Position numbers: made by a program. Source: a virus (lineage: Duplodnaviria > Heunggongvirae > Uroviricota > Caudoviricetes). From it: a stretch of DNA of 7,245 bases. Location of the stretch: the IMG/VR virus record IMGVR_UViG_2537561510_000012; one strand, given 5' to 3'. Positions 3,001-6,000 of this stretch are shown piece by piece. The stretch's first letter is position 1, and every line of letters starts with the position of its first letter.

Positions 3001-6000
3001 GCAACTGGTTGTCGCAGTGCCAGCACAACACCATTGCGCCGGTACCATAACGGTGAATGACGGTTTCACTGTGGTGATAATCGCCGTGTGGCCACTGGCA
3101 GGATTTAACATGGCGCAGTAACCAGTCAGACAGTGCGCCAGCGCCACCAGCAGCACGAATCACTCGTTCGTCGCTGAAAAATGGCAGTAATGATTTATCC
3201 TCCGCCAGCGGCTGGCGAACGGCAGGAACGACCCCGGACGGCAGATTACGCATGCTTTTCGGTTCCGGCTCCACCAGTACCCGGGTATTGTGGAATACCG
3301 GCATGGATTCACGGCCCGGCTTAACGATCACCAGCCCGAGTTCCGGTACCAGAACAGGTCGAAGTAATACCCGCACGTTACCTCCAGATGCGTTGCTGGA
3401 ATGTGCGGGACGGACGCGGTGGGCGTTCGGAGTAAGGAAGCCTGACGGAGATTATCCAGTGACGATAATCGAGACTGAGGGCTTTCTTAACCTCGTATCC
3501 GCGCCTGCGGTAACACTGAATCAGCCATTCAGCCTGTTCTTCGGTGCAGGGGTCGTGCTGATACCAGTCAGATTTGAATGCATGAGAACGCCGCCCGTGC
3601 CTGCTGGCAGGGGCGGCAGAGTTATCCGAATTGTAAAATTTGGTATCGTGCGCCATCTGTTTTCTCTGCTGGCGCAGCAGGTGCCAGTTGTTCAGGCTGA
3701 CGGATGGATTGTAAACCAGAACGACCAGAAAAAACAAAACCCGCCGAAGCGGGTTAAGTGCGGGTGCGTTGAGGATGCCTGACACATCAGCGGTGGCGAG
3801 GGATTTCTCCCCCGCCTGGTCTCTTACTCCTCAGGTTCGTAAGCTGTGAAGACAGCGACCTCCGTCTGGCCGGTTCGGATTCGTACCTCGCAGAGGTCTT
3901 TCCTCGTTACCAGTGCCGTCACTATGACGGTTAAACAGATGACGATCAGGGCGATTAACATCGCCTTTTGCTGCTTCATAACCTGCTTCTCCTTGCCTTT
4001 CGGCGCGTAAGAGGCTAACCTACGTTTGTGAAGCATAGATTGGGCCTCAGATTAATGTTAAGCGTCTTGCAGGACGCGTAATGTTAACTGGGGCTTTTCT
4101 CTGTCTGCCTTACGGTGGCATGCCCGAGGCAGACAGCCTCAAGCACCCGCAGCAATTCTACTTAACTCTCGCTTTACAGCAAACCGTTTTGCCCGATATG
4201 GGAATTCCCATACGGAATGAATTCAGTTCCCCAGGCGCTCCATCAAAAACACAACCAGGCAGTAAACACCCACAACAGCAATAACAGCCAGAGCGCCTTC
4301 CATTACCAGTGAAATATCATCCGACATATTCCCTCCCTTGGTGTGAATCCCGGCGAACGTTTTTACCCCCACCGACAAATAACATATACTAGAAAAGCAA
4401 TAGCTATAGCAACGCCTGCAAATGCATCTGGCCGGCTCATTGGTTCTCCCCCTGTGTCGCTTCTACTGCGATCTGACTGGCGTATTCGTTAATGGTAACG
4501 ATAAGTTCTTGCTCGGCCTCATCCAGACAACTACCGATACCTCGCCTGTCCACTTCAGAAGCATCGAAATCTGCACGAAGCCTGGCGACCTTCAGGATTG
4601 CGGACAACACCTCATCAGGGATTGCCGGAGAGTTGGTTGACGTTTCCGAGATTATCCGAAAATTATTGGTTGACGAACCCTTATTTTCCCGAAAGTTTCC
4701 AGCCTGAAGCATGGCGGCGCGGTGACACCAGATAATCCAGCCAAGCGCCATATCCCATGCCATGTATTCTCTATCGCCATTTTTTGCTCTGCGGCGATCT
4801 ACAGATTCCCCGAAACGCTTCTCCATAAATAATTCATAGGCTGCCCGTTCATCCGATACTGATGCCAGTGATGCCAGTGCAATTTTTAATGCGGTAAGCA
4901 TGTTGTTTTGATCTTCATCGAGTCCGAACGGTATTTCATCCCGTGATGACTCAATTCCGGTAATCGTGTTCTGTAGCCATTCTTTGGTTAATTCAGTCAT
5001 TTTTCACTACCGCCCTTTCGGGCGGTCTCCTGATGTTCTGAGGGTGCAGGAATCCCTCCGGTTAAGGATTTAATAAAAATCATTTCTGATTTAAATTTTC
5101 AGTGTTTAGTTGTTGGTTTATAGCCTTTATGCTTCGGCCTTATTTCTCAGCCATACACAAACAGGACCATCTTCGGTGTCATGTATCGAACCGATAAACC
5201 ATCCCTCACCTTCTGGTCGCTCAGGTTCCCATGCTGAAATATCAGGGCCATCTGCGTCCAGATTAAAATCATCTTCATCCATACTACGGATAGCCCACTG
5301 AAGATTATTTTTCTCCATCCAGGCGTTAAACTCTTCCGTTGAAATATATTCCCGACCATCACAGAATTTTTCATATTCAGGATGCGTCCAGCAGCCATAT
5401 TCATTACGTTCCACTGGCATTTCTTTAATTACGCTCATTTACCCCCCTTATTTAATTTTCTACGACACTTTTTACAATCATCTGGACTTTCGAATGTATC
5501 CGGCTCACGCTCATTGCCAAAATACATCCACCCACCGCAAATACTTGTTATTTCACCTTCAGCAAAATAATGATGTTTTTTCGCCATAAGTGACCTTGCC
5601 CAGCCCGGATTCGTTTTACTCACTTGTTGCCTCCTTTGCGAAGCTCTGCGACTAACTCGTCACATATGTGCGTCAAAGAGCAAAGTTTGATTGCTGGATG
5701 TTCGCGCACCATCTCCACACCCTGCGCCCGCAATTCTGCCAGAAAAGCGTAGGGGTCAGTTTTTTCACTGTGGTACATGGCATCATAGATAATCATTGCA
5801 GCGACACCTGCCTGTCCTGCATCTGTGACGGATATATGCTCAAGGGCTACGGCCATTGCGTGTTTCAACCTCTCATTTTCCACCTCAAGCACCACACGAT
5901 TAGCCTCCAGCTCTTCTATGCGTTTTTTTGCTGCTCCCAGCTCAACACGCAGCTCCTGATAGTTAATCTCGCTCATTCTCCTTCCTCCCGCACTGCTGTT

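What the first reader, a model, noticed from the sequence alone, without database searches (positions are those of the whole stretch)
3722..4183. Complete hok/mok/sok-type type I toxin locus, with the upstream frame in frame with hok
The Hok toxin CDS is unambiguous. Around it the sequence shows a promoter, an R1-like 5' leader stem (GCUUGAGGCUGUCUGCCUC), a candidate antisense promoter placed to start Sok about 8 nt inside the mok-like frame, and an intrinsic terminator. Unlike K-12 hokD, which I recall being transcribed from relBE and lacking its own regulatory elements, this copy looks autonomously regulated and possibly active. The upstream ATG at 4036 is in frame with hok (57 nt), so translation from it would make a 70-aa extended Hok. 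As I recall, mok in R1 is in a different frame.
Basis: partly seen in the sequence, partly recalled or inferred. Interest (0 to 1): 0.45.

Follow-up and report, generated by a model that had tools for sequence, protein, structure and literature searches.

The report
Prophage hok/mok/sok toxin-antitoxin locus
This is an intact copy of the well-known hok/sok killer-gene cassette (hokD/hokW type) carried in the early region of a lambda-like prophage of enterohaemorrhagic E. coli. It is sequence-identical to copies in several hundred sequenced genomes, so it is real but ordinary.

Summary
On the minus strand, 4183-3729 carries a complete hok/mok/sok type I toxin-antitoxin locus. It has a promoter, a 5' tac element, an ucb/mok-SD hairpin, a mok start at 4036, a convergent Sok promoter and Sok hairpin, hok (3979-3824, 51 aa), a 3' fbi element and an intrinsic terminator.

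Rfam RF01794 scores 114.9 bits (threshold 59) and Pfam HOK_GEF gives E 3e-23. The full transcript folds with the 5'/3' tac-fbi stem (z -7.0). Across 37 homologues, 24 of 63 consensus pairs show compensatory changes, against 12.4 in shuffles.

The stretch is 100% identical to loci annotated hokD in the 25 best-matching EHEC chromosomes listed (344 records at 99% or more). It is 92% identical to hokW-sokW of Stx2 phage Sp5, which has been shown experimentally to be a type I TA system.

K-12 hokD shares only the hok SD, CDS and 3' end, and relE replaces the leader. The in-frame upstream ATG (57 nt) is real and differs from R1 (58 nt), but it is not new. K-12 mokC/hokC and mokA/hokA share stop codons, and VT2-Sakai annotates the 213-nt ORF. 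In 54 loci the offset was 57 in 35, 58 in 11 and 56 in 2.

Verdict: already known, low interest.

The parts
4177..4182 (-). hok promoter -35 (TTGCTG)
   Evidence: Read from the sequence. It lies 16 nt upstream of the -10. It is a weak match (3/6), so the consensus scan did not call it. Sp5 hokW differs here by one base (TTGCGG, position 4178).
4155..4160 (-). hok promoter -10 (TAGAAT)
   Evidence: Matches 5 of 6 consensus positions and lies 6 nt upstream of GGGTG. A -10-like hexamer sits in the same register in hokW, Evi, PPompW, hokC, hokB, hokE and R1.
3730..4148 (-). Full-length hok mRNA (inferred ends)
   Evidence: The 5' end is placed by the start of the Rfam model at 4148 and by homology to the R1 5' end. 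The 3' end is placed by the terminator. MFE -174.9 kcal/mol, z -7.0.
4137..4148 (-). tac (translational activator) element, GGGUGCUUGAGG
   Evidence: It pairs with fbi in the MFE fold. The duplex is -21.5 kcal/mol and is the best of 69 control windows. The pairing is kept in 37/37 homologues, with compensatory changes.
4101..4136 (-). 5' hairpin next to tac (CUGUCUGCC / GGCAGACAG)
   Evidence: Predicted. The window has G4134/C4103 where Sp5 has A/U, a compensatory pair. Helix 2 is 99% paired across 37 sequences.
4090..4094 (-). ucb / anti-SD (GCCCC), which sequesters the mok SD
   Evidence: It pairs with GAGG at 4048-4045 in the MFE and in the RNAalifold consensus. One pair covaries, AU:24 / GC:13.
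4044..4094 (-). Sok-target hairpin with an extended GC-rich tip (about 4061-4079)
   Evidence: Seen. Rfam treats the tip as a 16-nt insertion relative to its model. The tip is present in hokW-type loci and absent in hokC, hokB and R1.
4045..4048 (-). mok Shine-Dalgarno (GAGG)
   Evidence: Invariant in 37 homologues and lies 8 nt upstream of the mok ATG.
3824..4036 (-). mok-like ORF, 70 codons, in frame with hok (N-extended Hok)
   Evidence: Found. The offset to the hok ATG is 57 nt, the same as K-12 mokC and VT2-Sakai orf74.
3993..3998 (+). Sok promoter -35 (TTGCCT), overlapping the hok SD on the other strand
   Evidence: Read. It is identical in Sp5 sokW (probe YO-597 in PMC8621323).
4016..4021 (+). 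Sok promoter -10 (TAACCT)
   Evidence: Read, with a 17-nt spacer. The hexamer is identical in Sp5, where substitutions introduced around the -10 element to repress sokW transcription left HokW toxic on induction (PMC8621323).
4028..4100 (+). Sok antisense RNA (inferred, about 71-73 nt)
   Evidence: The start is placed by homology to annotated K-12 sokC, which begins 8 nt inside mokC. Hairpin plus U-run, -30.4 kcal/mol, z -4.9. sokW has 71 nt of complementarity to the hokW leader (PMC8621323).
3989..3994 (-). hok Shine-Dalgarno (AAGGAG)
   Evidence: Read from the sequence and nearly invariant in the alignment.
3824..3979 (-). hok toxin CDS (51 aa, identical to HokD)
   Evidence: PF01848 E 3e-23. 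Identical to K-12 HokD. Annotated hokD, WP_000813254.1, in identical genomes.
3795..3816 (-). 3' UTR hairpin (GGCGGGGGAG...CUCGCC)
   Evidence: Predicted. Helix 14 has compensatory changes at 3 of its 4 pairs.
3762..3774 (-). fbi (fold-back inhibition) element, CCUCAACGCACCC
   Evidence: Complementary to tac with one bulged C. Column 4/424 covaries, UA:27 / CG:10, with no broken pair.
3729..3755 (-). Intrinsic terminator (AACCCGC-UUCG-GCGGGUU plus T run)
   Evidence: Found. It is shared with K-12 hokD, phage Evi and PPompW, but not with Sp5.

Best explanation
This is a canonical, structurally intact hok/mok/sok type I toxin-antitoxin cassette of the hokD/hokW subtype. It sits in the nin region of a lambdoid prophage of enterohaemorrhagic E. 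coli, between the replication genes and DUF968-rusA.

Inferred mechanism, by homology to R1 hok/sok and Sp5 hokW-sokW:
1. A constitutive promoter makes a stable hok mRNA of about 420 nt. Its first 12 nt (tac) pair with the fbi element near the 3' end.
2. In this closed form the mok Shine-Dalgarno sequence is held by the upstream GCCCC box, so neither ribosomes nor Sok can act.
3. Slow 3' trimming removes fbi. tac then re-pairs with the GCCCC box and exposes the mok start.
4. The short-lived Sok RNA is made from the convergent promoter inside mok. It pairs with the mok start region, blocks mok translation and therefore hok translation, and marks the duplex for RNase III.
5. When Sok is lost, mok is translated through the hok start and the membrane toxin is made.

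Here mok is in frame with hok. Ribosomes starting at 4036 would therefore make a 70-aa N-extended Hok in addition to any 51-aa Hok started at 3979.

Shown here: the sequence elements, their predicted pairings, and covariation across homologues. Inferred: transcription of both strands, processing, toxicity and regulation of this particular copy.
For: - Family matches: Rfam RF01794 at 114.9 bits against a gathering score of 59, Pfam HOK_GEF and PHROG 251.
- Identity: 100% to loci annotated hokD in all 25 EHEC chromosomes listed; 344 records at 99% or more.
- Closest characterised relative: 92% identical to VT2-Sakai/Sp5 hokW-sokW. That locus was shown to be a type I TA, with toxic HokW, a sokW promoter needed for protection, and partial dependence on RNase III and Hfq (PMC8621323).
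- Conserved elements: the window and Sp5 share identical tac, fbi, hok -10 and Sok -35/-10 sequences, and their stem differences are compensatory.
- Fold: the MFE of the full transcript contains the tac-fbi stem and the SD sequestration, z -7.0.
- Consensus structure: RNAalifold on 37 homologues from Escherichia, Kluyvera, Photorhabdus, Pantoea, Citrobacter and plasmid R1-type loci keeps these helices. 24 of 63 pairs have compensatory changes, against 12.4 +/- 1.9 in shuffles (0/500) and 3-9 in slid controls.
- tac-fbi duplex: between -17 and -27 kcal/mol in 37/37 sequences, always the best of 60-71 control windows.
- Sok: the hairpin has z -4.9, and the Sok start offset equals that of annotated sokC.
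- Mechanistic framework for R1: PMC9841398.
Against: - There is no expression, processing or toxicity data for this exact copy.
- Both promoters are weak matches to consensus and were not called by the simple scan.
- Intact chromosomal hokA, hokB and hokC loci were reported not to mediate post-segregational killing and not to respond to rifampicin (bioRxiv 10.1101/2025.08.07.668861, citing Pedersen & Gerdes). Intact elements therefore do not guarantee the classical phenotype.
- The 37 sequences used for covariation were chosen for having a reverse complement of their first 6 nt downstream. That biases helix 1, pairs 1-6. Pairs 7-12 and the other 13 helices were not selected.
Confidence: 0.93

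Rival explanations
1. The cassette is structurally intact but functionally silent. It would be a passenger relic that no longer kills or stabilises anything, as was concluded for the chromosomal hokA, hokB and hokC loci.
For: Chromosomal hok/sok loci with intact elements failed to give post-segregational killing or rifampicin activation (bioRxiv 10.1101/2025.08.07.668861). The hok -35 is weak. The host prophage looks defective, because rusA is truncated and Q is missing.
Against: The nearest characterised relative, hokW-sokW at 92% identity, is an active TA and affects phage release (PMC8621323). None of the columns that are invariant or covary across the family is broken in the window. HokD protein of identical sequence is used as a toxic positive control. 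Exact sequence conservation across 344 records fits recent spread or selection, but does not distinguish between them.
Confidence: 0.2
2. The real toxin gene is the single 70-codon ORF 4036-3824, not a mok/hok pair. In this reading the internal ATG at 3979 is not used as a separate start and there is no translational coupling.
For: The upstream ATG is in frame. VT2-Sakai and the PPompW/Stx2a phage records annotate the 213-nt ORF as the gef homologue. Sok targets the upstream start.
Against: The internal start has a strong, nearly invariant AAGGAG sequence 9 nt upstream. In close relatives the same upstream ATG lies 58 nt upstream (11 loci) or 56 nt upstream with an ATGA stop-start overlap (2 loci), so it cannot encode Hok there. 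The leader nucleotides are nevertheless equally conserved. HokW cloned from the internal ATG alone is toxic (primer YO-357 and Fig. 1C of PMC8621323). In R1 only mok translation up to the hok start is needed (PMC9841398).
Confidence: 0.1
3. hok is expressed mainly as part of the phage early-right operon by read-through from upstream genes, as K-12 hokD is from relBE, and the local promoter is irrelevant.
For: hok is co-oriented with all flanking early genes from cro-like to Q. No terminator is predicted between the upstream ORF and hok.
Against: A -10 hexamer is conserved at a fixed distance from the conserved 5' end in loci with unrelated upstream sequence, including chromosomal hokC, hokB and hokE and plasmid R1. 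The tac element must be at or near the 5' end to work as in R1. hokW mRNA is present before induction (PMC8621323).
Confidence: 0.1

Closest known systems
hokW-sokW of Stx2 phage Sp5 / VT2-Sakai (E. coli O157:H7 Sakai; Takada et al. 2021, PMC8621323)
   Same: It has the same subtype and the same setting in a lambdoid nin region. Nucleotide identity is 92% from promoter to fbi. tac, fbi, the hok -10 and the Sok -35/-10 are identical. Both have the extended Sok-target hairpin tip and a mok in frame at 57 nt, and Hok is 47/51 identical.
   Different: Four C-terminal Hok residues differ (TAYEPEE against VDYESEK). Four substitutions lie at or just upstream of the inferred Sok 5' end (4024, 4026, 4030, 4031). 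Downstream of fbi the window has an intrinsic terminator, whereas Sp5 has unrelated sequence.
K-12 hokD (relF) in the Qin prophage
   Same: The Hok protein is identical (51/51). The hok SD, 3' UTR hairpin, fbi and terminator are the same. The downstream neighbour is also the same, a DUF968 gene (ydfU in K-12).
   Different: K-12 lacks the promoter, tac, ucb, the mok start and Sok. The relB-relE operon abuts the hok SD instead.
K-12 hokC/mokC/sokC (gef)
   Same: mok is in frame with hok at a 57-nt offset, and the two share a stop codon. Sok starts 8 nt inside mok. The leader architecture is the same.
   Different: Hok is 82% identical. hokC lacks the extended hairpin tip. In K-12 its 3' end, including fbi, is cut off by IS186.
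hok/mok/sok (parB) of plasmid R1
   Same: All named elements are present: promoter, tac, ucb, mok, Sok, hok, fbi and a 3' hairpin. The predicted long-range pairing is the same (PMC9841398).
   Different: Hok is 39% identical. mok lies 58 nt upstream and out of frame. The 5' hairpin is longer and the Sok-target hairpin shorter. It is plasmid-borne and has a post-segregational killing role.

Membership tests
[quoted passage not shown] | Small hydrophobic Hok/Gef-family toxin of about 50 aa | tested here: met
   PF01848 E 3e-23, 81.6 bits against a cutoff of 22. PHROG 251 E 2.8e-33. Identical to HokD.
[quoted passage not shown] | Conserved hok mRNA leader in sequence and structure | tested here: met
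   Rfam RF01794, full-length match to model positions 1-157, 114.9 bits against a gathering score of 59. The model matches the hok-sense strand.
[quoted passage not shown] | Long-range 5' tac / 3' fbi pairing that closes the full-length mRNA | tested here: met
   A 12-bp stem in the MFE. Conserved with compensatory changes in 37/37 homologues.
[quoted passage not shown] | Upstream mok reading frame with its own SD, running across the hok translation start | tested here: met
   GAGG-N8-ATG at 4048-4034. The ORF is open through 3979 to 3824. It is in frame, as in mokC and mokA.
[quoted passage not shown] | Sequestration of the mok SD by an upstream complementary box in the closed form | tested here: met
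   GCCCC at 4094-4090 pairs with GAGG at 4048-4045 in the MFE and in the alignment consensus. One pair covaries. This is prediction only.
[quoted passage not shown] | Convergent cis-encoded Sok antisense RNA that covers the mok start | tested here: inconclusive
   The promoter hexamers are identical to validated sokW, and there is a hairpin with a U-run. Transcription of this copy cannot be tested with these tools.
[quoted passage not shown] | 3' processing to an active truncated mRNA, and RNase III cleavage of the Sok duplex | not testable with these tools
   Requires northern blotting or RACE in wild-type and rnc/pnp backgrounds.
[quoted passage not shown] | Toxicity that is neutralised by Sok | not testable with these tools
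   Shown for hokW-sokW at 92% identity (PMC8621323). HokD CDS is reported toxic (bioRxiv 10.1101/2025.08.07.668861). Not shown for this copy.
K-12-type relBE-hokD operon | hok preceded directly by relE, with no leader of its own | tested here: not met
   The window has a full leader. Homology to K-12 starts only at about 3993.

The most novel reading that the evidence does not exclude
The cassette may act as a built-in sensor of prophage induction. It lies co-directionally inside the early-right operon, and the Sok promoter faces that transcription head-on. Antiterminated early transcription after induction could therefore occlude or collide with Sok transcription, deplete the unstable Sok RNA, and release Hok, including the 70-aa in-frame Mok-Hok form. 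This would explain the unexplained RecA-dependent disappearance of sokW RNA reported for Sp5. The evidence here does not exclude it. The gene orientation fits, no terminator lies upstream of hok, and Sok loss on induction is reported (PMC8621323). Nothing here tests it.
Probability: 0.2. Interest if true: 0.4.

Novelty: already known. Interest (0 to 1): 0.1.

Why it matters
It matters little beyond correct annotation. The locus shows what an intact hokD looks like, in contrast to the truncated relBE-linked K-12 copy. It also shows that PGAP annotates only the toxin CDS, leaving mok and Sok unmarked.

The one by-product of modest value is the frame census. Among close relatives the mok start lies 56, 57 or 58 nt before the hok start, while the leader nucleotides stay conserved. 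This supports the published view that the act of translating mok matters and the Mok peptide does not. It also means that in the majority class an N-extended Hok is an unavoidable product.

Tried and rejected
- A profile search of genome contigs with a six-member Hok alignment failed because no stretch was conserved enough. A single-protein query was used instead.
- Two K-12 coordinate guesses, for hokB and hokE, missed the genes and were repeated (then 16, 17).
- A literature search for 'gef orf69 sof' returned only irrelevant papers, and 'mokC hokC in-frame' gave nothing useful. The statement that gef was originally described with an overlapping orf69 rests on my memory only.
- The consensus promoter scan called neither the hok promoter nor the Sok promoter. 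It called a site at 4061-4032 on the minus strand, inside the leader. I rejected that site as chance because its -10 (TATGCT) contains the mok ATG and is not kept in Sp5, which has CATGCT.
- The sub-threshold Rfam isrK hit on the hok 3' UTR (27 bits against 50) was not pursued.
- I considered whether the window is an artificial chimera, because no genome holds it contiguously. I rejected this because the rusA-esterase junction occurs naturally in 27 O157:H7 genomes.
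Full report
**What is there**

The feature lies on the minus strand. An ORF list shows a 70-codon frame at 4036-3824. Its last 51 codons, from the ATG at 3979, are a Hok/Gef toxin: Pfam PF01848 with E 3e-23 and PHROG 251 'MokW-like host killing' with E 2.8e-33. The 51-aa protein is identical to K-12 HokD.

A scan of the whole window against Rfam gave one match above threshold. This was RF01794 'sok', at 4148-3974 on the minus strand, with 114.9 bits against a gathering score of 59 and covering the whole model. 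That model matches the hok-mRNA sense strand from the 5' end to the hok AUG. It therefore identifies the leader, not the strand that makes Sok.

An intrinsic terminator follows at 3755-3738 with a T run.

**Anatomy**

- **hok promoter.** The -10 TAGAAT is at 4160-4155, 6 nt before GGGTG at 4148. A weak -35, TTGCTG, is at 4182-4177. The -10 sits in the same register in hokW, hokC, hokB, hokE and R1, although the upstream sequences are unrelated.
- **Closed form of the mRNA.** The 416-nt transcript 4148-3733 folds at -174.9 kcal/mol, z -7.0, with 0 of 100 shuffles as stable. Its first 12 nt (tac, 4148-4137) pair with CCUCAACGCACCC (fbi, 3774-3762). GCCCC (4094-4090) pairs with the mok Shine-Dalgarno GAGG (4048-4045).
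- **Sok.** On the plus strand, TTGCCT (3993-3998), a 17-nt spacer and TAACCT (4016-4021) form the Sok promoter. A start near 4028 is 8 nt inside mok, exactly the offset of the annotated sokC/mokC pair in K-12. The RNA 4026-4100 folds into a long hairpin ending in GGGGCUUUUCU, at -30.4 kcal/mol and z -4.9.

**Is it a real member of the hok mRNA family?**

I collected 53 loci from one-genome-per-species contigs. To these I added K-12 hokA-E, an R1-type plasmid locus and three phage or plasmid copies.

Thirty-seven distinct full-length mRNAs were aligned. They come from Escherichia, Shigella, Kluyvera, Pseudocitrobacter, Citrobacter, Pantoea and Photorhabdus, plus an R1-type plasmid. The RNAalifold consensus keeps these helices:
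- tac-fbi;
- the 5' hairpin;
- the ucb/mok-SD helix;
- the hok-start/CDS helix;
- the CCUCUUAC/GUAAGAG helix;
- the 3' UTR hairpin.

Covariation results are as follows.

| Measure | Observed | Shuffled controls | Slid controls |
|---|---|---|---|
| Cells forming standard pairs | 97.3% | 93.0% | 38-45% |
| Pairs with compensatory changes (of 63) | 24 | 12.4 +/- 1.9 (0/500 reach 24) | 3-9 |

The tac-fbi duplex is between -17 and -27 kcal/mol in all 37 sequences and always beats 60-71 internal control windows. It shows switches such as GAGG/CCUC to GAGA/UCUC to GAAG/CUUC, and UGC/GCA to CGC/GCG.

One caveat applies. Sequences entered this set only if the reverse complement of their first six bases occurred downstream. 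Pairs 1-6 of that helix are therefore selected. The rest are not.

**Where it comes from**

The 531-nt stretch is 100% identical to loci annotated hokD in all 25 best-matching O157:H7 and O26 chromosomes listed. In all, 344 records match at 99% or more, and matches of some kind occur in 4,739 of 5,426 complete E. coli genomes.

In strain PV15-279 the locus lies in a lambdoid prophage. It sits between the replication genes and DUF1627 on one side and DUF968-rusA-Q on the other, co-oriented with them.

It is 92% identical to the corresponding stretch of VT2-Sakai (Sp5). The hokW-sokW locus there has been characterised experimentally (PMC8621323):
- HokW is toxic.
- The sokW promoter is needed for protection.
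- RNase III and Hfq contribute.
- sokW RNA disappears and HokW appears after mitomycin C, in a RecA-dependent way.
- Deleting the locus halves phage release.

Between the -35 and the end of fbi, the window differs from Sp5 at 33 positions. None of them falls in tac, fbi, the hok -10 or the Sok hexamers; one (4178) falls in the weak hok -35. The pair G4134/C4103 against A/U is compensatory.

**The K-12 contrast**

K-12 hokD aligns with the window only from the hok SD (about 3993) through the CDS, 3' hairpin, fbi and terminator. Upstream of that point lies the end of relE.

**The frame question**

In the window the upstream ATG is 57 nt before the hok ATG and in frame. In R1-type loci it is 58 nt before and out of frame. 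I verified this on a sequence that matches 2,661 plasmid records at 99% or more.

The in-frame case is not new:
- K-12 mokC (16751-16960) and hokC (16751-16903) share a stop codon.
- mokA and hokA also share a stop codon.
- mokB and hokB are out of frame at 58 nt.
- VT2-Sakai annotates the 213-nt ORF as 'gef homolog; orf74'.

The census of 54 loci gave the following.

| Offset from mok ATG to hok ATG | Loci | Notes |
|---|---|---|
| 57 nt, in frame | 35 | includes the window, hokC and hokW |
| 58 nt, out of frame | 11 | includes loci whose Hok is identical (L016) or 94% identical (L021, L022) to the window's |
| 56 nt | 2 | mok stop TGA overlaps the hok ATG; E. ruysiae and E. whittamii |
| No recognisable mok start | 6 | relBE-type hokD, a lost ATG, short contigs |

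The nucleotides between the two starts (GCCUCUUAC...CAAGGAG) are invariant or nearly so in all three frame classes. Conservation is therefore at the RNA and promoter level, not the peptide level. [quoted passage not shown] A consequence, which is inferred, is that in the 57-nt class every mok translation event yields a 70-aa N-extended Hok.

**Mechanism**

The best explanation is the canonical hok/sok mechanism set out in the Best explanation section. The sequence elements, predicted pairings and covariation are shown here. Transcription, 3' processing, Sok turnover and toxicity of this copy are inferred from R1 and hokW-sokW.

The main rival is that the locus is intact but phenotypically silent, as was reported for chromosomal hokA, hokB and hokC. 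I give that about 0.2.

**Novelty**

The feature is already known. hok loci are known to be enriched in prophages (bioRxiv 10.1101/2025.08.07.668861). This subtype has been studied functionally, and this exact sequence is annotated in several hundred genomes. Interest is low.

The most novel reading not excluded is that early-operon transcription running head-on into the Sok promoter triggers Hok production on induction.

Noticed in passing
window 784-2314, junction at about 2076-2080: rusA is truncated after 85 codons and fused to the C-terminal 430 codons of a nanS-p-like SASA/DUF6645 esterase. The Q antiterminator, the tRNA genes and the 5' half of the esterase, all present in the otherwise 99.9% identical PV15-279 prophage, are missing. 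The same junction occurs in 27 O157:H7 genomes, for example EC4115, where both halves are annotated as pseudogenes. The host prophage therefore looks defective for late-gene activation.
   Followed up: partly
window 3734-3815 (minus strand): A sub-threshold Rfam match to isrK, a Salmonella Gifsy-1 Hfq-binding sRNA. It scores 27.2 bits against a gathering score of 50, E 0.0086, over the full model length. It overlies the hok 3' UTR hairpin and terminator. It could be chance, or a distant relationship between IsrK and hok 3' ends in prophage nin regions.
   Followed up: no
window 4223-4327 (minus strand): A 34-aa hydrophobic ORF (MSDDISLVMEGALAVIAVVGVYCLVVFLMERLGN) ends 40 nt before the hok -35. 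It is annotated as a hypothetical protein in identical genomes. It has no Pfam, NCBIfam or PHROG match.
   Followed up: partly
window 3838-3841 (minus strand; hok Tyr47 codon UAC followed by G): A UACG motif sits in the loop of a 3-bp hairpin whose stem covaries across 37 homologues (CG:24/UA:11 and GC:20/AU:15). It corresponds to the TadA A-to-I Tyr-to-Cys recoding site reported for hokB and said to occur in hokC, hokD and hokE.
   Followed up: partly
loci L025, L027 (offset 56); L016, L021, L022, L034, L036, L039, L040, L042 (offset 58); compared with window 3979-4036: The reading frame of mok relative to hok changes among close relatives through single-base indels between the two start codons. 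In two Escherichia species the mok stop overlaps the hok start as ATGA.
   Followed up: yes
window about 4061-4079 (minus strand): hokD/hokW-type leaders carry an extra GC-rich hairpin tip of about 19 nt on the Sok-target stem, so Sok is about 71-73 nt. hokC, hokB and R1 lack it. The tip shows compensatory changes in Kluyvera and an unnamed Enterobacteriaceae genome.
   Followed up: partly
window 4024-4031: Four of the differences from Sp5 hokW-sokW cluster at or just upstream of the inferred 5' end of Sok, which is the region that starts antisense recognition in R1. EHEC genomes carry up to 10 related copies, so this could insulate paralogous loci from cross-regulation.
   Followed up: no
window 3974-4148: The Rfam family named 'sok' (RF01794) is modelled on the hok-mRNA sense strand, running from the transcript 5' end to the hok AUG (157 positions). 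A hit therefore reports the strand opposite to the real Sok RNA.
   Followed up: yes
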